Assembly (NCBI GenBank): GCA_000004985.1
Contig: GG738851.1
Strand: one strand, 5' to 3'
Origin: Naegleria gruberi
Taxonomy: Eukaryota
Length of the DNA stretch: 64,000 nucleotides
Made by a program: the position numbers and the translations under genes. Below are positions 24,947 through 33,623 of the stretch, in pieces; the first letter of the stretch is position 1, and every line of letters begins with the position of its first letter. Under the pieces are notes generated by a model. The model searched no databases, was not told where the DNA came from, and saw only the letters and a program-made list of their open reading frames with translations.

Positions 24947-26767
24947 TTAGTCAGTTACTACTTTATTCCTTTGGTTAAGCAATGCTATGCAACAGCGGTA
25001 AAGCAAAGCCAATCGTTCCTCAGAATCAAGAGCACAATTTTGAAAATCCAAACAATCAGGATATTTCTCGTAGAACGTTTTGCAATGTTCTTCAAATGGC
25101 ACACCATTGATTTGGATGCATTTGATAGCAAATTCAAATGCATCCCATTTTTCTTTAGTGATTCTGTTTGAATCAGTAATTATATCTGTGCATAAATCCT
25201 CTATTGTTGAAGCTCCCAAAATTGAAGGTTTGAAACATTTGACAGCAGTTTCTAGGATTCTTTCAAATTCCGAACTATTAGCATACCAATAAATAAATAA
25301 TGTTCTAATAGTCGACCTAACATGCTCTGCATAATAACTTATATCTCTATTTTTCTCATTCAATTTTTCCATCAACTTTTCCAAATCAAATGGCCCATAT
25401 TCCTCATAGAAATCCTTAAAATAATACATAATATTGCAATTGTAGGTTTTAAAAAACGATTCCACAAAATGTGAAGGTCCTACAAGTCCTTCAAAATATT
25501 CTAGCTCGTAAGGATCAAAATCGTTCACCAATTTGATTAATTTCATTGGATTTGCCTGTCTAAAAGTATAAGTATGCAAAATTCTCTTAATATCTGTCAT
25601 ATTTATCAATCCATGTTTGTATAACTCTTCTATTAACTCATAATCATTGACATTTCTGCATATTAAAAAAAGAATATTCTCTGAGAATAGTTCCATCTTG
25701 TCCACTTTCACAATCTCACAATATTTTCTTACAAATTCAAAGTTAAGATATGATGATGATTCACTTAAGTGGACAAGTCTGTTATTATGTCTATAACCAA
25801 AATTCTTCGTGCAACTGTCAAATATTTTGACGGACAAACCAGGATAAATAATTTCCATACAATTAAACCAACATTCCAATCCCAGCAGAGAACTTGCAAT
25901 ATGATGGAGAGGTATTTGAAGTTTGGATATGTCATTTGATTTTTCTACATTTCCATCAATGGAAATATATTCTTGGATGAATTTCAATAATTTTTCTTCG
26001 TCTTTGTGAATGACAATGTAATTAGCCAGCGAGTAATCATCCATTATCGGTTTGAATTTGTTGATAAATTCGATCGAATCATCGTATGTGAGTTCAGAAA
26101 TAGCAACATTGAATATGGATTTTGAGAAACGTTTCCAATAGTCTTGAGCTCTCAATCCTTCCATCACTCTGCCATCTTTTGTGAATTTCTTGGCATGCGA
26201 CAAGAAATATTGGGCTATAACTCCCGTGTGTATATATTCTACAACACTGGGTTGAAAATCTTTTGAGATTTCTTCTAATCCTTTGCTCATCATTAATGAA
26301 AAATTAGCATTCAAAGCAGACGGAATCAATTTCTTAAATCTCGTTCCAAAAACTGTTGATCTTTCCATTTCATCCTCGTCTCTATCCATAAACTCCATAA
26401 ACGAATGCTTGTTCACCTTCTTTTCATTCAAAATCTGAGTAGTGTGAAACTTTCTCGTCACATCCGCAAGATTCCTATAAATTTTGTATTGTGTAGAGTT
26501 TTTAGCACAAGATTCCATCATCTTTTCATAATAATCAATTTTTAATAGCAACCAATTGGATAGCAGTGTTTTCCAGACCATTTCAAACCGATCCAATTGA
26601 TACCAATTTTTACAAGTCAACACACAGGATAGACCGTCCTTCAAACCAATATATTCCATCACGTGAAAGAGAGTGTCCGGGTGAAGTTCATGTTGTGGCA
26701 TTTTTTTTTTCTGTTGTAAATGATTTCTTCCACTGGTCAACCCAAAACCAATGCAAATTGTCTGCAT
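24947..26767 (-). CDS. F-box domain protein (hypothetical), 606 aa
   Basis: ATG ORF. The N-terminus LHPDTLFHVMEYIGLKDGLSCVLTCKNWYQL fits the F-box consensus (LPxEIL..IF..L...DL.....VCK.W..L). The rest has no recognised domain. Confidence 0.6.
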   Translation of the reverse strand: MQTICIGFGLTSGRNHLQQKKKMPQHELHPDTLFHVMEYIGLKDGLSCVLTCKNWYQLDRFEMVWKTLLSNWLLLKIDYYEKMMESCAKNSTQYKIYRNLADVTRKFHTTQILNEKKVNKHSFMEFMDRDEDEMERSTVFGTRFKKLIPSALNANFSLMMSKGLEEISKDFQPSVVEYIHTGVIAQYFLSHAKKFTKDGRVMEGLRAQDYWKRFSKSIFNVAISELTYDDSIEFINKFKPIMDDYSLANYIVIHKDEEKLLKFIQEYISIDGNVEKSNDISKLQIPLHHIASSLLGLECWFNCMEIIYPGLSVKIFDSCTKNFGYRHNNRLVHLSESSSYLNFEFVRKYCEIVKVDKMELFSENILFLICRNVNDYELIEELYKHGLINMTDIKRILHTYTFRQANPMKLIKLVNDFDPYELEYFEGLVGPSHFVESFFKTYNCNIMYYFKDFYEEYGPFDLEKLMEKLNEKNRDISYYAEHVRSTIRTLFIYWYANSSEFERILETAVKCFKPSILGASTIEDLCTDIITDSNRITKEKWDAFEFAIKCIQINGVPFEEHCKTFYEKYPDCLDFQNCALDSEERLALLYRCCIALLNQRNKVVTD

Positions 26768-26777
26768 CTAAAATTGC

Positions 26778-28032
26778 TTATAATTGAGTTGGTGGCGAGG
26801 AGGTCTCTGGAGTGAAGAGAGTATTTATAAAGTTATTCCTATTACTGGGAAGAGAATTTGAAAGCAGTTCTTCATTGCTGATGATTGAAGAGGGCGAGTT
26901 GAGTGTTGAAAGATAATAGGGCGATATTGGTGTTGTTGATTGCTTTGATTGATTTGCCAGTTTGAGGACACCACTATTGGTAGAAGATTTTGGTTCCTTG
27001 TAGGTTGAAACTGTGGTTATAGTATCAGTTTCTTGTTGTTTCTTTTTCATTTCGAATGAAATATTGTCAAGTGGTCCAAATGCAAACGTTACCAGAAGGC
27101 ACAATATTCCAATAGATACTTTGTGGATAATAGAGGAAGCAAGAAGGATTTTGGCTGGAGAGAATATAATTTTCAACATTAGTATTATATTTGAAATAAT
27201 ATTCAAGAGTGAAGTTAATAATTGTCCTATTGAAAGTGCAATCAATTTACGACAAGCTGTTTTTCTCTCCTTAGAGATGGGTCTATTTTCTGGCAAGAGT
27301 TTCCTTACCAGAGCCCCTACGCTTACTACATTCAAAATTGTGAAATATAACATTCCTAATGAAACAAATAATCCTAATGTAGAACTGACAGTCTCGGCCT
27401 GTTCACTTATCAAGATGGTCATTGCTGTTTCTGCATATCTTAGCATGAATAGTGTGCATACAGTTACAATAAAGAGCAGCAGTAAAATGTTTAGAATAAT
27501 CACAAGAGAAATACTCGAAATTTTGACAAACTTTCCCCAAGTTTGATTCATTCGATTTTTCCTCATCCAAGATTGTGTCTTATTGAAATAAATATTGTAA
27601 ATTATCTTTGCTATGGTAGCCTGACTGTTCATACACAGAGTTACAGAAATCATCATGCCAGACGTTTCAAAGGCATGAAAAAATGTCCAAAACCAACCCT
27701 GCATTGCAGTGATTAATCCAACCGTGTATGTTATTCCAAAACATTGAAAAACTATTTGATTAAGACAAATAAGTATCAATAGAATGTACAACAATCTCTT
27801 ATTAAATACCATATGCTTCCACTTTGATACAAGTAGAAATCCCATCGGCAATAGAAGAACCATAAAGAAGAGAAGACCTGTAATATGCACTCCGAGAATT
27901 CCATAAATACAATCGTCGATTGATGATGGTTGTATCATTACGGAGCTATTGAATCCATATTGTGATGAATTAAAGAATGAAGAAGATAATGATGATGATG
28001 GCGGTTGTGGCAAATTGATAGAAATCAACATT
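26778..28032 (-). CDS. 7-TM (GPCR-like) membrane protein with a Ser/Thr-rich C-terminal tail
   Basis: The track ORF (26778..28121) starts at TTG, and I take the first in-frame ATG (MLISINLPQ..) at about 28032. There are seven hydrophobic segments. A GTAAGT sits inside the TTG-initiated leader, so an unrecognised 5' exon is possible. Confidence 0.55.
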
Positions 28033-28151
28033 AAATTTCTTTTTAAAATTCTTTTTAATTTGATTTGTACTAATATTGACAAAAAACTTACAGAGATATT
28101 GACTGGTAGTGAAGACCTCAAATTATAAGAAAAATAATATCAAAAAGCACA

Positions 28152-28226
28152 TGCTACCCGCGCGGATCGAACGCACATCTTCTTACTCCCGATAAGCAAG
28201 ACGCCCTACCATTAGACCAGAGCAGC
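28152..28226 (-). tRNA. tRNA-like gene of uncertain identity (possible tRNA-Ile TAT with a 4-nt intron, or a pseudogene)
   Basis: The minus-strand sequence is GCTGCTCTGGTCTAATGGTAGGGCG TCTTG CTTATCGGGAG TAAGA AGAT GTGCGTTCGATCCGCGC GGGTAGCA. The acceptor, D-arm and T-arm are good (B-box GTTCGATCC). The anticodon stem TCTTG/TAAGA encloses 11 nt rather than 7, so either a 4-nt intron or an expanded loop is present. Confidence 0.5.
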
Positions 28227-28262: not shown

Positions 28263-29477
28263 TCAAGCATTAAGATACTCCATCAAAAAGAAAAACCACA
28301 GTGGAACTGTGTTGTGCTCCAATAATTTGGAGCTAATCTCAATATAGGGAACTGTGTGTGTAGCCAATCGATTGTAGAGTCTTTGATTTGTAATCTTGTA
28401 TTCTGAACTGTGATCTGACTGCATACCAACAATGGCCATGATACATGAGGGGACTAACTTTCTAACCTGCTCTATAAAGAAACGAATATTTAGTAAGGTG
28501 GCTTTGCTTGTCAAGTCAAAAGCAATGATGCAATATTTGGAATCATTCAAAAAAGAATTTCTTGGTACGTATATTTGTTCTCCTCCTGCCCAGTCCCATA
28601 ATGCAATGTTCAAGCTTTCAGTCTGATTCAATTGTGTTGACAAATTGAAAACTGAGACAGTACAACCAATGGTTGGTAAATACTTTTGGTGTGGTTTGAA
28701 TTTTGAAACATCTAAGGATTTACAAAATGTTGTCTTGCCAACTGCACCACAGCCCAAAACACAACACTTTGCCAACTTGATATCCTTCCACTTGGAAAAG
28801 GTTTCATCGGTGAGTGAAAATTTTCTAACTCTAAGGAGAGCTGCTTCCTCTTCCACAATCTTCTTACCACTATTCTTCAGGAAGGATTTGTAAACTTGAA
28901 ATTGTTTCATCAAACTCTCGAATAATAATAAATCATCGGGTTGATGAGTCTTATCTGCCACTGTGGATGATGATGAAGAATTATCATCCTCTTTCAAATT
29001 CAAGACAATGTGTTGCCATAGACCCTTTTCACTCCACTCCTTCTCACACTCCTTCAACATGTTCATAACATATTGTTGAAAGCAAAATTCGTAGAATCCA
29101 ACTTTTTCTGCAGCCAAGTCTAGGAAGGATTCTGAAGTTGGTGGCTTATTCTCTTCAAAATCATCATCACCATCCTCTTGATATTTCATCAATGCTAGCC
29201 AATATAAATCACTCTCTGTATAATTAATACTAATATTCAATGATGTCTTATGGTTCTGCAACTTGATGATTTTCCTTTGGATATACTCTTCGACAAGTCT
29301 TCGGGAAAGCTTACAACACTTGGAGATGCCAAAAAACAAATCCAAAGGATTGAGAAACTCCAATATTGAAAACAACCATACATCATTATTAATTCCCATC
29401 AATTCGTGTTGTTCATCCTTTTCCTCGTTGTCGGCTTTTATTCTTAAGCTTGATTCTGTATTGTTCTTGTTATTCAT
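28263..29477 (-). CDS. F-box-like N-terminus fused to a degenerate Ras-superfamily GTPase domain (no NKxD, no switch-II Gln)
   Basis: The track ORF starts at TTG (29615), and the first ATG gives MNNKNNTESS.. at about 29477. The F-box-like segment is DVWLFSILEFLNPLDLFFGISKCCKLSRRL. The GTPase-like segment has the P-loop LGCGAVGKTTF and DxxG as WDWAGGEQ. There is no NKxD, and GMQSD sits in its place. Confidence 0.55.
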   Translation of the reverse strand: MNNKNNTESSLRIKADNEEKDEQHELMGINNDVWLFSILEFLNPLDLFFGISKCCKLSRRLVEEYIQRKIIKLQNHKTSLNISINYTESDLYWLALMKYQEDGDDDFEENKPPTSESFLDLAAEKVGFYEFCFQQYVMNMLKECEKEWSEKGLWQHIVLNLKEDDNSSSSSTVADKTHQPDDLLLFESLMKQFQVYKSFLKNSGKKIVEEEAALLRVRKFSLTDETFSKWKDIKLAKCCVLGCGAVGKTTFCKSLDVSKFKPHQKYLPTIGCTVSVFNLSTQLNQTESLNIALWDWAGGEQIYVPRNSFLNDSKYCIIAFDLTSKATLLNIRFFIEQVRKLVPSCIMAIVGMQSDHSSEYKITNQRLYNRLATHTVPYIEISSKLLEHNTVPLWFFFLMEYLNA

Positions 29478-29768: not shown

Positions 29769-31586
29769 ATGTTGATGATCCTATTGGTGGCCTTGATGGT
29801 CATTGTTATTTCTCTGATGATCAACATTGCCTTCAAACTTTATAATAATTATAAGAAGGGTATGTTGTTTTTTCTTTTCAAAATTTAATGATGATTAATT
29901 TTACCAAAATCGATTGGTTACCACAGTTGCTCATATTCCTGGTACTTTTCAATTGACATTTACTCCGTGGAGAATTCCTTTAATTTCACCTGTTTGGTAT
30001 TTGGGAAATGTTGGTACAATTGTTGATGATGTTAGAAAGTATGGTGATGCTGAGAATAAAATCATGAGAATTACTTATCCTGATGCTAATATGGTGCTAG
30101 TTTCTGATCCAGACATGTTGAAAGAGTTCTACCTGACCAAGGGAAATACATTTGACAAGTCGAGTTATGTCTATGACATGTTCAATGTTTATGGAGAGAG
30201 TATCTTGTCAGCTAAAGATACCGAAACATGGAGAAAGCATTTCAAGTAAGTTTTACAATTTTTTACAACAATTTGTGTAATTAACTGATTATAGAGTTGT
30301 TTCACCTGCATTCTCTCCAAAGAATTTGCAATACATGTGTAAGGTTTGCATTGACAGTTCAAAATTATTATTCAACAGATGGGAATCAAAATTGAAAGGA
30401 AAGGAATATTTCATATTGGATTTAGGTGATTTCCCAGATGTTACATTGGATGTTCTTGGAACTAGTGCTTTTGGTATTGATTTTGGCACTTTTTCAGGTG
30501 AACACAACACATCAGAATCAAAATTCAGAAGAGCAATGGAAAAGGTAATTTCACATCAATTCCTAATTAGAAGATTCTTTTTAGAGGTTCCATGGCTTTG
30601 CAAGTTTTTGGAGAGTGTTACTGGAGCAGGAGAAGCAACCAAGTTTTGTGGAGATTATTTGGATAAGGTCATTAAGGATAGAACAAAATTGGTAGAGAGC
30701 TATACTTCATCAACAACTGACGATGAGAAAAAGCATGATGTGTTTACATTGTTAGTGGAGGCTAACATTCTTGACAAGCAATTGACAGATGGAGAATTGA
30801 AGAGTAATGCCTTGATTTTCTCGTAAGTATTATTAATATTTGTATATTTATCAAATACGTATAGAGCTGCTGGACATGAAGTAAGTATCAATTAGATTTC
30901 ACATTCTCATTTTAAATACCATAATAATAGACAACTGCAACCTTACTAAAGTGGACCTTTTATGAAATCTCTAAAAGACCTGAAGTTCAAAACAAAATGT
31001 ATCAAGAAATTGTGGAAAAAATTGGTGATCGTCCAATAGAATACGAAGATTTTGGTAAGATGGACTATGTTTACTCTACCATTCTAGAGGTGTTGAGATT
31101 TAACCCTCCTGTCGTTTGGGTCTCTCGAGAATGTAACAAGAGCACAACTATTGGAAAGTATCACATTCCAAAAGGAACCAGAGTAAATGCTCTCATCAAA
31201 CAAGCTCACAGTAATGAAAAGAATTGGACCAGGCCAGAAGAATTCAATCCAGAACGTCTCTTCAACAATCCAGAGCTCAGAGACAAGGTTCAACAGGATA
31301 TGTCATTCATTGGATTTTCTATGGGAAATCGTAAATGTAAGTGTTTAGATTATCATATTTTTTTACTAATTTAAACAATCCAAACAAATGGACAAATACC
31401 ACATCTCTAGGTATTGGATATAAATTTGCTTTATTAGAAGCAATGATGCTTATTTGCACATTCTTAAAGAGCTATGAATTTAAATTGGAAAATGATGAAA
31501 CTATTGATCCAGTCCTACCAAAGAAAGGTATCGTAAATGTTCCAGGTGATAACATGAGAATCAGAGTCTTCCACAGAACCAAATAA
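29769..31586 (+). CDS. Cytochrome P450, 6 exons (29769..29859, 29927..30245, 30295..30822, 30865..30880, 30931..31336, 31411..31586), 511 aa
   Basis: All five introns have GTAAGT or GTATGT donors and AG acceptors, and the summed exon length of 1536 nt keeps one frame. The product has an N-terminal membrane anchor, the I-helix motif AAGHETT (split by a 16-nt exon), an ExxR region, and the heme loop FSMGNRKC|IGYKFA split by the last intron. Confidence 0.85.
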
Positions 31587-31739: not shown

Positions 31740-33623
31740 ATGAAACCCAACTTGTTTCTTCTGGCAATCTACCTGTGTGGTGTCTTGCTATTCGTATCAT
31801 CCATTGATCCGAGTGAAGAAAAGCCAACCATGATCCTATTCCACACTGATCTCAATTCATCCGATTCAAGATTGGTGTTACATGCCAATGGATCAGCCAC
31901 TGTTGAGAGAATATTTTCCATTAACGACATGGAAATGATTAAAGCCTTTGTTGATCAAGATAGGATGCAAATTAGATTGGATGGATTATCATCATGGATT
32001 GATCCGAAGAGTTTTATGGCCACTGTTCAACAAGATACAATCATGATGGACAAGATGAAACAACAAGAAATACAAGTTGATGCTGGTGGAAATCGTCTTA
32101 AGAAGGTTAATACTGATAATAATTATTTAATGTTTAAGGAACAAGTGTATACTAAAGTTCCAGATGATAGAGAAATGAAGAAGAGAATGAAAGAAAAGTT
32201 GGTCGCTGAACAAAAAGTTATTCAAAAGAAGATTGTTTCGTATGAGAATATGAAGAAGCAAATTGTAGAATCCAAGTTTGAATTGGATCAATTTGAGCAA
32301 AAGTTAAAATTGGTTGATGAGTTGATGGAACTAATGGAGAAGAATCAAATTAAAGTGGATGAATTGGAAGAGAAGATTCAAGAAATTGGAAAGACTCAAT
32401 TGTCATCTTCCATGTATTTTGAATTTTCATCAAAAGTTCCAGAATTTGTTAGGGCAGATCCAAAACCATTCATTCTTAAGATTAAGTATATTATCAGCAA
32501 GGGAAGATTCAATTGGACTCCTCAATATTTACTCTCAGTTGATAGTAGTACTCAAACTGGACAATTAATGTTTATGGCGAATGTAGTTCAAAAGACTGGT
32601 GAGAATTTCACAAATGCTCTGGTTGAATTATCGACAGATGAATTAGGACAAGCTCCAAGCATGCCAGAATTCAATCTGTTGACTTTGGATCAGACAGACA
32701 TTTACAAATATCTCCGTAAAACGAACAGTCCACACACATTTGCTGGGTCATCATTTATTAGCCTTACTTCTAAGAAACTTATGAGTGACCAAAGAAACTA
32801 TCAAAATCAATTTGAGGGTGCGAATATTGAATCAAATCAAATGGATCAAAACTCACAGGTTTCCACAGATGTTATCAGATCTACCACTTCTTACATGATT
32901 GCTGAGAGAGCTTCATTTATCACTGATTCAAATGGGTCAGACAAGACAGTTTCATTACTCATTGCCAAGATTAATCTCGAATCAAAGTGGTATCATAAAG
33001 TCATTCCAAAACAATCCTCAAGAGTCTACACAATCATGGCCATTAAGAACAAATCCAAATATCAACTAATCCCAGGTGATGTTAATATTTTCATTAATAA
33101 TGTTCTTTCCACACAATCAAGAATCAAATCAGATGTCTTTCCAGATGATGTCTTCCAATTAGATATCGGTATTGATAGAATGGTCTCTGTGAAACTCAAT
33201 GATCACAATAAGAATGAACAAGAATCAGGTTGGTTCTCCAAAACCAATTCCATCACTGAAAATTCACAAATTACCATTGAAAACAAGAAGGATGTTCCAA
33301 TCAATATTACAGTTATCAATGCTTTACCATTCACAGAAGATTGGCATACAGACGATAAGTTACAAATCATCCTCACTCAACCAAAGACAGACCAAGGAAA
33401 GGATATTGATTTACATGAAATTTTCCTTCCAAAACCAGGTCCAGATGGAAAGGACACATTCTATCCAACTGAATATCAATTCAACACCAAGGTTGGTAAA
33501 AAGGATATGAAATGCAAGATTAAAAAGAGAAATCATGCATTAGAACGAAACTTTTCCATTTCTTCAAAGGAATCAATTGTATTGCCATTGTCTTTTCAAA
33601 TGTGCGTCACTCTTGCAAAATAA
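31740..33623 (+). CDS. Secreted protein with a central coiled-coil (hypothetical), 627 aa
   Basis: The ATG ORF has a signal peptide (MKPNLFLLAIYLCGVLLFVSS) and a K/E-rich heptad-like region (ELDQFEQKLKLVDELMELMEKNQIKVDELEEKIQEI). It has no catalytic motif. Confidence 0.55.
   Translation: MKPNLFLLAIYLCGVLLFVSSIDPSEEKPTMILFHTDLNSSDSRLVLHANGSATVERIFSINDMEMIKAFVDQDRMQIRLDGLSSWIDPKSFMATVQQDTIMMDKMKQQEIQVDAGGNRLKKVNTDNNYLMFKEQVYTKVPDDREMKKRMKEKLVAEQKVIQKKIVSYENMKKQIVESKFELDQFEQKLKLVDELMELMEKNQIKVDELEEKIQEIGKTQLSSSMYFEFSSKVPEFVRADPKPFILKIKYIISKGRFNWTPQYLLSVDSSTQTGQLMFMANVVQKTGENFTNALVELSTDELGQAPSMPEFNLLTLDQTDIYKYLRKTNSPHTFAGSSFISLTSKKLMSDQRNYQNQFEGANIESNQMDQNSQVSTDVIRSTTSYMIAERASFITDSNGSDKTVSLLIAKINLESKWYHKVIPKQSSRVYTIMAIKNKSKYQLIPGDVNIFINNVLSTQSRIKSDVFPDDVFQLDIGIDRMVSVKLNDHNKNEQESGWFSKTNSITENSQITIENKKDVPINITVINALPFTEDWHTDDKLQIILTQPKTDQGKDIDLHEIFLPKPGPDGKDTFYPTEYQFNTKVGKKDMKCKIKKRNHALERNFSISSKESIVLPLSFQMCVTLAK

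What the first reader, a model, noticed from the sequence alone, without database searches (positions are those of the whole stretch)
28263..29477. F-box-like domain fused to a motif-degenerate Ras-like GTPase
The N-terminal region carries an F-box-like helix pattern (DVWLFSILEFLNPLDLFFGISKCCKLSRRL). The C-terminal 170 aa is a small-GTPase fold with an intact P-loop (GCGAVGKTT). Its DxxGQ is WDWAGGE with no Gln, and no NKxD is recognisable. A substrate-adaptor domain fused to a probable pseudo-GTPase is an unusual architecture. It sits head-to-head with the P450 and next to the odd tRNA.
Basis: partly seen in the sequence, partly recalled or inferred. Interest (0 to 1): 0.6.

Follow-up and report, generated by a model that had tools for sequence, protein, structure and literature searches.

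The report
Degenerate F-box Ran-like GTPase, Naegleria
This is a real Naegleria gruberi gene that joins a worn-down F-box to a worn-down Ran-like GTPase domain. The F-box-GTPase architecture was already published for Naegleria in 2021, so this copy is only the most eroded member of a small known family.

Summary
ORF 28263-29477(-) encodes 404 aa with a C-terminal Ras-superfamily G domain (Pfam Ras 6.8e-19; AF2 pLDDT about 90; Foldseek TM 0.8-0.87 to Rab structures). G1, G2 and G5 are intact. G3 is DWAGGE (Gln to Gly). G4 realigns unambiguously to MQSD, not NKxD.

The window is Naegleria gruberi and the gene is XP_002681167.1. The NCBI model starts at Met97 and so omits the N-terminus.

The F-box is not demonstrable from this sequence alone (Pfam 13.7 bits, below cut-off; hhalign 12.7%). 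It is inherited by homology: four relatives align over the whole length, and their N-termini match a validated F-box profile (hhalign 91-96%, far above shuffles). This copy has lost the F-box Leu-Pro and has a rewritten switch II. It evolves much faster than its relatives (36 versus 4 unique changes), yet its ORF is too long to be an old pseudogene.

The architecture is not new. Herman et al. [quoted passage not shown] They list this gene as "Ran" with the same corrected start, but without an F-box flag.

The function, a GTPase-deficient SCF substrate receptor or a decaying copy, is inferred and not tested. Interest is low to moderate.

The parts
28263..29477 (-). Complete intronless coding sequence (404 aa plus TGA stop) of the F-box-derived Ran-like GTPase. 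It is N. gruberi XP_002681167.1 with the corrected N-terminus.
   Evidence: ORF list and sequence. It is 100% identical to P0001/XP_002681167.1 over aa 97-404. The same 404-aa model is listed in Table S8 of PMC8296547.
29190..29477 (-). The 96 N-terminal codons missing from the NCBI model, which starts at Met97 (MKYQEDG, 29189).
   Evidence: P0001 sequence. Residues 21-96 are conserved with relatives: P0005 matches query 21-296 at E 1.6e-16 in the whole library, and the N-terminal 232 aa alone hit the relatives.
29280..29396 (-). Degenerate F-box remnant (aa 28-66, GINNDVWLFSILEFLNPLDLFFGISKCCKLSRRLVEEY). The Leu-Pro is replaced by Asn-Asn and the CK.W tryptophan by Leu.
   Evidence: Pfam F-box 13.7 bits, below cut-off. 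The family profile against nine validated F-boxes gives hhalign 94.8%, score 38.1, versus shuffles 10.0+/-2.4 with maximum 19. This copy alone gives 12.7%. Relatives alone give 90.6-92.9%.
28776..29279 (-). Predicted helical linker region (aa 67-234) with no known domain. It is conserved within the family, including the F.(F/V)Y.S.F motif.
   Evidence: Alignments. AF2 predicts helices at pLDDT 45-74. There is no Pfam hit.
28266..28775 (-). Ras-superfamily (Ran-derived) G domain, aa 235-404. It has no C-terminal extension, no CaaX motif and no acidic tail.
   Evidence: Pfam Ras and Roc, PDB hits, AF2 and Foldseek. The closest paralogue P0002 hits Ran at 8e-28 versus Rac at 7e-18.
28728..28754 (-). 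G1/P-loop GCGAVGKTT (aa 242-250), intact.
   Evidence: G242, G247, K248 and T249 match columns that are invariant or nearly invariant in 113 homologues.
28578..28598 (-). G3 WDWAGGE (aa 294-300). DxxG is kept and the catalytic Gln is replaced by Gly. The following switch II (QIYVPRNSFL) has lost the Ran signature KFGGLRDGYY.
   Evidence: Column statistics and family alignment.
28413..28427 (-). G4 GMQSD (aa 351-355) in place of G[NT]KxD. Asp is kept, and Asn/Thr and Lys are lost.
   Evidence: HMMER alignment to Rab27B and column statistics showing K in 110 of 113 and Q in 0. Relatives read TKLD, MKLD, TKSD and TKSD.

Best explanation
The locus is a protein-coding gene of Naegleria gruberi. It belongs to a small, Naegleria-restricted family of five members found here. 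In this family an N-terminal F-box, a helical linker of about 170 aa and a Ran-derived G domain form one polypeptide.

By analogy with other F-box proteins, the ancestral family most likely acts as a substrate receptor of an SCF (Skp1-Cullin-F-box) ubiquitin ligase. The Ran-like domain would be the partner-binding module, so ubiquitination would be coupled to a nucleotide state. This step is inferred.

Four of the five members lack the catalytic Gln. The family is therefore probably GTPase-deficient and held in a GTP-like state rather than cycling. This is inferred from motifs.

The copy in this window is the most eroded member:
- It has lost the F-box Leu-Pro that normally contacts Skp1.
- It has lost the catalytic Gln.
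- It has lost the Asn/Thr and Lys of G4, which is expected to weaken guanine-nucleotide affinity or speed exchange.
- It has lost the Ran-type switch II.
- It has accumulated several times more lineage-specific substitutions than its relatives.

Its 404-codon ORF is nevertheless intact. It is therefore best read as a fast-evolving, still-constrained paralogue working as a hydrolysis-dead, possibly nucleotide-independent scaffold. Its link to Skp1 may be weakened.
For: Identity and gene model.

G domain.

Full-length homology to F-box Ran-like relatives:
- The exhaustive search gives only P0002 (2.4e-24) and P0005 (1.6e-16, covering aa 21-296) besides self.
- Alignments are, and blastp.
- A syntenic N. 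lovaniensis orthologue of the L001 gene was found.

Ran derivation: P0002 hits Ran at 8e-28 against Rac at 7e-18. Herman et al. classify the gene as 'Ran'.

F-box homology of the family: hhalign gives 94-96% with score 38-42, against 200 shuffles with maximum 19.

Erosion in this copy:
- Pfam Ras scores 68.5 bits here against 101-109 bits in relatives.
- Tajima relative-rate tests give 36 versus 4 unique changes (p=4e-7) and 65 versus 24 (p=1e-5).

Coding constraint: in neutral-drift simulations the ORF stays open in 0.7% of replicates at 10% aa divergence, and in 0 of 300 at 21%.

The published view that F-box/BTB-GTPase fusions point to 'GTPase-dependent ubiquitination' in Naegleria is in PMC8296547 Additional file 4.
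Against: - No member reaches Pfam's F-box cut-off.
- A family N-terminal HMM finds no F-box protein among PDB sequences.
- This copy alone is indistinguishable from shuffles against the F-box profile.
- The N-terminal part of the AF2 model has low confidence, so the F-box fold is not shown structurally.
- Skp1 binding, nucleotide binding and expression are all untested.
- Erosion of both domains, the absence of a listed 1:1 N. fowleri orthologue and the family's birth-and-death dynamics fit relaxed selection as well as they fit neofunctionalisation.
- Grouping of this copy with the N. lovaniensis-type genes is only weakly supported (NJ bootstrap 61%) and there is no synteny.
Confidence: 0.6

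Rival explanations
1. The gene is a recently inactivated or decaying paralogue. It is a product of the birth-and-death evolution of Naegleria GTPase families, no longer has a function, and simply has not yet acquired a stop codon.
For: The signature residues of both domains are lost at once. The rate is strongly accelerated. It has the lowest Pfam Ras score in the family. No 1:1 N. fowleri orthologue is listed. Herman et al. note pseudogenisation and birth-and-death in the F-box Rab-like clades.
Against: The ORF is uninterrupted over 404 codons in 34% GC DNA. Neutral simulations leave it open in under 1% of replicates at only 10% aa divergence, whereas this copy carries far more lineage-specific change. 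The nucleotide- and Mg-binding residues G242, G247, K248, T249, T269, D295, G298, D355 and S382 are all still present. Herman et al. did not flag it as a pseudogene.
Confidence: 0.2
2. It is a conventional nucleotide switch with unusual motifs. It still binds and slowly hydrolyses GTP, or is hydrolysed with a GAP that supplies catalytic residues as in Rap/RapGAP. It acts as an ordinary signalling GTPase, and the N-terminal region merely controls its own turnover, as proposed for TbFRP.
For: G1, G2, DxxG, the G4 Asp and G5 are retained. GTPases without the catalytic Gln, such as Rap, are functional switches (general knowledge). The TbFRP authors suggest its F-box serves rapid turnover of the GTPase itself (PMC3593210).
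Against: The G4 Lys is K in 110 of 113 homologues and never Q. Substitutions at this position in Ras raise nucleotide off-rates (general knowledge). The switch II region, which regulators and effectors read, is rewritten relative to all relatives.
Confidence: 0.15
3. The deposited 308-aa model is correct. On this reading translation starts at Met97, the upstream 'F-box-like' stretch is 5' UTR, and its resemblance to an F-box is chance.
For: The NCBI/UniProt model starts at Met97. The F-box hit is below threshold.
Against: The frame is open upstream to 29615, with ATG codons at 29477 and 29399. Residues 21-96 align with the N-termini of four relatives, including N. lovaniensis (DVWIFGILEFLSVLDVVFGFGRTCKL against DVWLFSILEFLNPLDLFFGISKCCKL). 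Herman et al. independently corrected the model to the same start.
Confidence: 0.05

Closest known systems
Naegleria F-box Ran-like GTPases (N. gruberi XP_002672613.1 and XP_002677020.1, listed as 'Ran' plus 'F-box' in Table S8 of Herman et al. 2021, PMC8296547; also the N. lovaniensis gene at PYSW02000049.1, L082:4897-6200)
   Same: The order of parts is the same: F-box-type N-terminus, helical linker, Ran-derived G domain, and a short hydrophobic C-terminal helix (LW[FY]..). They align over the full length at 23-30% identity. They are the only proteins besides self with N-terminal coverage in a search of 1.84 billion representatives. Most also lack the catalytic Gln (DTAGPE).
   Different: The relatives keep the F-box Leu-Pro (except N. 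lovaniensis, which has Leu-Ser), the Ran-type switch II (EKFG.LRD.YY) and a working-type G4 ([TM]K.D). This copy has NN, QIYVPRNSFL and MQSD. It also evolves several-fold faster. The published table does not flag an F-box for it. The N. lovaniensis-type genes have an intron after WDT that this gene lacks.
Other Naegleria F-box GTPases (three divergent Rab-like clades, Rho/Rac-type and G-alpha-type; Herman et al. 2021)
   Same: They follow the same design principle, an F-box fused to a Ras-superfamily G domain, and they often carry non-canonical G3 and G4 (for example WDSGGNE/LKSD and WDQCGPE/TKKD in Table S8). The same authors propose GTPase-dependent ubiquitination.
   Different: Their G domains come from different GTPase families. 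Similarity to this protein is confined to the G domain and is weaker than its similarity to human Ran (blastp 2e-5 to 1e-3 versus 1.7e-10). Some carry CaaX motifs, and this protein has none.
TbFRP (Tb927.7.3790), the FYVE - F-box - Ras-like GTPase of Euglenozoa (PMC3593210)
   Same: It is an F-box N-terminal to a Ras-like G domain in a discoban protist. Its function is unknown and the F-box is suspected to link the GTPase to ubiquitin-dependent turnover.
   Different: TbFRP has an N-terminal PI3P-binding FYVE domain, which is absent here (no FYVE hit at E<=1). Its G domain is Rab18-like, not Ran-like. The authors found no N. gruberi orthologue. I could not obtain the TbFRP sequence, so direct comparison was not possible.
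RhoBTB proteins (atypical Rho G domain plus BTB domains, Cul3 adaptors)
   Same: It works like these proteins in principle. A GTPase-deficient Ras-superfamily domain is fused to a cullin-adaptor module. RhoBTB genes are present in Naegleria too. The statements on RhoBTB biochemistry rest on general knowledge and the reviews cited in PMC8296547.
   Different: The adaptor is a BTB domain for Cul3, not an F-box for Skp1/Cul1. The G domain is N-terminal and Rho-type. There is no sequence relationship beyond the G fold.
Canonical Ran / Gsp1
   Same: The G domain derives from Ran. The paralogue P0002 has Ran as its clear best PDB match, Ran and Gsp1 are among this protein's top PDB hits, and there is no lipid-modification motif.
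   Different: It lacks the C-terminal linker, helix and DEDDDL tail, the catalytic Gln69 equivalent, NKVD, and the Ran switch II. It has a 234-aa N-terminal extension. A nucleocytoplasmic transport role is therefore unlikely.

Membership tests
Ras-superfamily small GTPase fold | Significant match to G-domain profiles and structures | tested here: met
   Pfam Ras 6.8e-19 (68.5 bits against a 21.6-bit cut-off) and Roc 2.1e-15. There are 689 PDB sequences at E<=0.01. AF2 pLDDT is about 90, and Foldseek TM is 0.8-0.87 to Rab structures.
Ras-superfamily small GTPase fold | Canonical G1-G5 motifs (GxxxxGK[ST], switch I Thr, DxxGQ, [NT]KxD, SAK) | tested here: not met
   G1 (GCGAVGKT), G2 (PTIG), DxxG and G5 (SSK) are present. 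The G3 Gln is replaced by Gly, and G4 is MQSD with only the Asp retained.
Ran family | Ran is the best match and the Ran-specific switch II signature (QEKFGGLRDGYY) is present | tested here: not met
   For this protein Rab27B and Rab43 score slightly better than Ran/Gsp1, and switch II reads GEQIYVPRNSFL. Ran descent is supported only indirectly, through the paralogue P0002 (Ran 8e-28 against Rac 7e-18) and the published classification.
Ran family | C-terminal extension with acidic DEDDDL tail | tested here: not met
   The protein ends at ...LWFFFLMEYLNA directly after the last G-domain helix.
F-box proteins (SCF substrate receptors) | Match to the F-box profile above the curated threshold | tested here: not met
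   PF00646 gives 13.7 bits (E 0.064) against a 20.5-bit cut-off. hhalign of this sequence alone against nine validated F-boxes gives 12.7%, within the shuffle range.
F-box proteins (SCF substrate receptors) | Homology of the family's N-terminal module to F-boxes (profile-profile) | tested here: met
   The family profile gives 94-95% with score 37-38, against 200 column shuffles with mean 10, sd 2.4 and maximum 19. Relatives without this copy give 95.8%, XP_002672613 alone 92.9% and L001 alone 90.6%. The nine reference F-boxes each pass Pfam cut-offs.
F-box proteins (SCF substrate receptors) | Conserved Leu-Pro at the start of helix 1 | tested here: not met
   This copy reads INNDVW, where relatives read NLPKEIW or KLPKEVW and N. 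lovaniensis reads KLSQDVW.
F-box proteins (SCF substrate receptors) | Binding to Skp1 and assembly into an SCF ligase | not testable with these tools
   This needs co-immunoprecipitation or yeast two-hybrid with Naegleria Skp1.
Pseudo-GTPases | Loss of catalytic residues | tested here: met
   The catalytic Gln equivalent is Gly299. That column is Q in 85 of 113 homologues.
Pseudo-GTPases | Loss or alteration of nucleotide binding or hydrolysis, shown biochemically | not testable with these tools
   Only motif inference is available. The G4 Lys and Asn are lost, but the P-loop, Mg-binding Thr, DxxG and G4 Asp are retained.
TbFRP-type FYVE-F-box-GTPases | N-terminal FYVE domain | tested here: not met
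   No FYVE family appears among Pfam hits at E<=1. The TbFRP authors report no N. gruberi orthologue.

The most novel reading that the evidence does not exclude
The eroded state may be functional and maintained by selection. On this reading the gene encodes a nucleotide-independent, Ran-shaped pseudo-GTPase whose remodelled switch surface has acquired a new binding partner. Its LP-less F-box would either bind Skp1 in a non-canonical way or have been repurposed. That would capture a step in which an SCF receptor family built on a GTPase fold turns a molecular switch into a static recognition module. More broadly, the Naegleria F-box and BTB GTPases would form a lineage-specific 'GTPase-gated ubiquitination' system that nobody has tested experimentally.
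Probability: 0.15. Interest if true: 0.5.

Novelty: new member of a known kind. Interest (0 to 1): 0.25.

Why it matters
The finding matters little as a discovery. F-box-GTPase fusions in Naegleria, including Ran-like ones, are already described, and this gene is already in the published inventory with the same corrected start.

The work adds four modest points:
1. This entry, listed without an extra domain, is a third N. gruberi member of the F-box Ran-like group.
2. The group extends to the N. lovaniensis clade, so it is genus-wide rather than specific to N. gruberi.
3. This copy shows simultaneous erosion of the Skp1-contact motif and the nucleotide motifs under a strongly accelerated rate, which illustrates the birth-and-death dynamics of these families.
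4. The RefSeq/UniProt model (308 aa, named 'rab family small GTPase') is truncated and misnamed.

If GTPase-coupled ubiquitination in Naegleria is ever studied, the canonical paralogue XP_002672613.1 (intact LP, DTVGQE, TKLD) is the better entry point. This copy would serve as a natural 'dead' comparison.

Tried and rejected
- Single-sequence AF2 gave an unusable model (pLDDT 35).
- An MSA-based AF2 run folded only the G domain. The F-box and linker stayed at low confidence, so no structural test of the F-box was possible. Foldseek therefore reports only G-domain matches.
- A family N-terminal HMM searched against PDB sequences found no F-box protein (best hit was rubredoxin, E 0.26), so HMM-versus-sequence search is too weak here.
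- The word-indexed protein search found almost nothing beyond self and P0002.
- The metagenome scan returned 80 loci, all generic small GTPases matching only aa >=166, with no further family members.
- Exact look-ups of P0156 and P0002 contigs were not on record.
- I found no synteny between the window and the L001/N. lovaniensis locus, so orthology rests on two shared indels and a weak NJ grouping.
- I first read the '...' ending the Table S8 sequence as an open 3' end. It is a 399-character storage cut that also appears in other rows.
- I considered a closer relation to the Rab-like F-box clade, which has a similar 'YEF' linker motif and C-terminal helix. I rejected it because blastp similarity is weak and limited to the G domain.
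- TbFRP could not be compared directly because no sequence was available.
- A paper search for the SRA run of L001 found nothing.
Full report
**1. What is at the coordinates**

The minus strand carries an ORF from 29615 to 28263. Its first ATG is at 29477 and its TGA stop is at 28263-28265, giving 404 codons. The window has about 34% GC and contains intron-bearing genes.

A protein search identifies the window as Naegleria gruberi. Residues 97-404 are 100% identical to XP_002681167.1/EFC48423.1, named 'rab family small GTPase', 308 aa.

**2. The GTPase half**

- Pfam gives Ras 6.8e-19 and Roc 2.1e-15 for aa 237-385.
- phmmer finds 689 PDB sequences at E<=0.01. They are led by Rab27B, Rab43 and Rab21, with Ran/Gsp1 close behind.
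- With a 114-sequence alignment, AF2 folds aa 235-390 at pLDDT of about 90.
- Foldseek superposes that domain on Rab structures at TM 0.8-0.87 and rmsd 2.2-2.5 A.

The motif positions are unambiguous. I compared them with the 113 best homologues:

| Motif | This protein | State in homologues |
|---|---|---|
| G1 | G242, G247, K248, T249 | conserved; intact here |
| Switch I | T269 | conserved; intact here |
| G3 | D295, G298 kept; catalytic Gln position is G299 | Q in 85 of 113, G in 3 |
| G4 | M352-Q353-S354-D355 | first position N/T/S in 100, M in 5; Lys position K in 110, Q in none |
| G5 | S382-S383-K384 | conserved; intact here |

The G4 Asp and all phosphate- and Mg-binding residues are kept. 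The protein ends right after the last G-domain helix, with no CaaX motif and no acidic Ran tail.

**3. Relatives**

An exhaustive HMMER scan of 1.84 billion representatives found only two proteins, besides self, that also match upstream of the G domain:
- P0002, which is N. gruberi XP_002672613.1, 'ran family small GTPase' (2.4e-24).
- P0005, a Logan assembly contig, which covers query residues 21-296 (1.6e-16).

The P0005 gene (L001) has one 70-nt intron after 'LWDT'. Spliced, it gives a 488-aa protein. Its DGAT1-like neighbour is 83% identical to N. lovaniensis and 56% identical to N. gruberi.

The syntenic N. lovaniensis locus (L082) carries the orthologous 408-aa gene with an intron at the same site. 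A third N. gruberi member, XP_002677020.1 (corrected model), comes from the literature.

The five proteins align end to end. P0002 is clearly Ran-derived, with Ran at 8e-28 against Rac at 7e-18.

Motifs in the relatives:

| Member | F-box start | G3 | G4 |
|---|---|---|---|
| XP_002672613 | LP | DTVGQE | TKLD |
| XP_002677020 | LP | DTAGPE | MKLD |
| L001 | LP | DTAGPE | TKSD |
| N. lovaniensis | LS | DTAGPE | TKSD |

All four keep the Ran-type switch II (EKFG.LRD.YY).

**4. The F-box half**

On its own, the stretch in this protein is not significant:
- PF00646 scores 13.7 bits (E 0.064), below the 20.5-bit cut-off.
- hhalign against an alignment of nine F-boxes gives 12.7% and score 17.9, inside the shuffle range, whose maximum is 19.5.

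I first verified that each of those nine reference F-boxes passes Pfam's cut-offs.

The relatives are also sub-threshold in Pfam, and a family HMM finds no F-box protein in PDB sequences.

Profile-profile comparison is clear, however:
- The family N-terminal profile matches the F-box profile at 94.8% with score 38.1. Two hundred column shuffles give 10.0+/-2.4 with maximum 19, and the reversed profile gives 11.7.
- The three relatives without this copy give 95.8%.
- XP_002672613 alone gives 92.9% and L001 alone 90.6%.

The N-terminus of this protein is homologous to theirs. It is therefore an F-box derivative. It has lost the Leu-Pro dipeptide (INNDVW against NLPKEIW) and the Trp of the CK.W motif. 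From general knowledge, the Leu-Pro is the most conserved Skp1-contact element.

**5. Evolutionary state**

This copy is the outlier of the family.
- Pfam Ras scores 68.5 bits here, against 101-109 bits for relatives.
- The Tajima relative-rate test gives 36 versus 4 unique changes against the N. lovaniensis protein (human Ran as outgroup, p=4e-7).
- Over the whole protein it gives 65 versus 24 (XP_002672613 as outgroup, p=1e-5).

It agrees with the Ran chain shown.

Two shared indels place this copy with the N. lovaniensis-type genes: a segment of about 25 aa after the F-box, and a longer beta2-beta3 loop. A weak NJ grouping (61% bootstrap) agrees. There is no synteny, and Herman et al. list no 1:1 N. 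fowleri orthologue.

The ORF is nonetheless intact. When the CDS is mutated neutrally, only 0.7% of replicates stay open at 10% amino-acid divergence, and none of 300 do at 21%. The gene was therefore under coding constraint for most of its divergence.

**6. What is already known**

Herman et al. [quoted passage not shown] - F-box and BTB fusions point 'to GTPase-dependent ubiquitination'.

Table S8 lists this gene as 'Ran', XP_002681167.1*, with a manually corrected sequence starting MNNKNNTESS. The entry has no 'F-box' in the domain column and no pseudogene flag. Its two paralogues are flagged 'F-box'. 'F-box' occurs 72 times in that table.

A related precedent is TbFRP, a FYVE - F-box - Ras-like GTPase of Euglenozoa, for which the authors found no N. 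gruberi orthologue (PMC3593210). This protein has no FYVE domain.

**7. Mechanism**

Shown:
- A Ran-derived G fold.
- An F-box-derived N-terminus, established by homology.
- Loss of the catalytic Gln, the G4 Asn/Lys, the Ran switch II and the F-box Leu-Pro.
- Accelerated evolution with an intact ORF.

Inferred:
- The ancestral family acts as an SCF substrate receptor whose Ran-like domain is the recognition module.
- Because four of five members lack the catalytic Gln, the family is probably hydrolysis-deficient.
- In this copy, nucleotide affinity is probably weakened as well and the Skp1 link may be impaired. It would then be either a static scaffold with a new partner or a gene drifting toward loss.

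I put about 0.6 on 'fast-evolving but still functional eroded member', 0.2 on 'decaying copy', 0.15 on 'ordinary switch with odd motifs', and 0.05 on 'short model correct'.

**8. Verdict**

The architecture is real, but it is neither unusual for Naegleria nor new. The incremental findings are the unflagged F-box remnant, the extent of erosion, and the extension of the F-box Ran-like group to the N. lovaniensis clade. I classify it as a new member of a known kind, with interest of about 0.25.

Noticed in passing
window 28152-28226 (-): A tRNA gene lies 37 bp downstream of the stop codon, on the same strand. Rfam tRNA scores 39.4 bits against a 29-bit gathering score. The anticodon arm carries 4 extra nucleotides, giving either an 11-nt loop CUUAUCGGGAG or a 7-bp stem with loop UAUCGGG, which lacks U33. 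ARAGORN calls it Pro(GGG) with the anticodon at position 37. Its identity and function are unclear.
   Followed up: partly
window 24947-26767 (-): A 606-aa ORF two genes downstream has a weak F-box-like N-terminus (PF12937 E 0.003, PF00646 E 0.023; LFHVMEYIGLKDGLSCVLTCKNWYQL) and no other recognisable domain. It is a second F-box-type gene within 5 kb.
   Followed up: no
window 26778-28121 (-): A 447-aa ORF between the tRNA and the F-box-like gene looks like a multi-pass membrane protein with Ser-rich ends. It has no significant Pfam family.
   Followed up: no
window about 29770-31586 (+): A cytochrome P450 gene is split by several short introns. Its fragments match PF00067 positions 14-98, 144-269 and 299-411. 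The likely start ATG is at 29770, and the first intron begins with GTATGT at 29860. It shares a 292-bp divergent intergenic region with the GTPase gene.
   Followed up: partly
window 29190-29477 (-) versus the public record: The RefSeq/UniProt model XP_002681167.1 / D2V3W3_NAEGR is N-terminally truncated by 96 residues. It is named 'rab family small GTPase', although its nearest relatives are Ran-derived.
   Followed up: yes
L001:2033-2102 and L082:5777-5853: The L001 gene and the N. lovaniensis gene share a phase-1 intron directly after the LWDT codons of G3. The N. gruberi gene in the window is intronless at that site, so an intron was lost or gained within the family.
   Followed up: partly
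L082:3574-4507 (-): In N. lovaniensis a second divergent Ras-family gene sits head to head with the F-box Ran-like gene. It is called as 281 aa with Pfam Ras/Roc, and the ORF fragment shows G3 LDTAGPPN. This suggests local clustering of atypical GTPase genes.
   Followed up: no
window 31740-33623 (+): A 627-aa ORF carries a DUF4139 domain (2.9e-22) and an apparent N-terminal signal or anchor sequence.
   Followed up: no
window, whole: Seven tRNA genes were found in 64 kb: Trp, Lys, Ile, Val, Pro(UGG), the odd Pro(GGG)-like one, and Asp.
   Followed up: no
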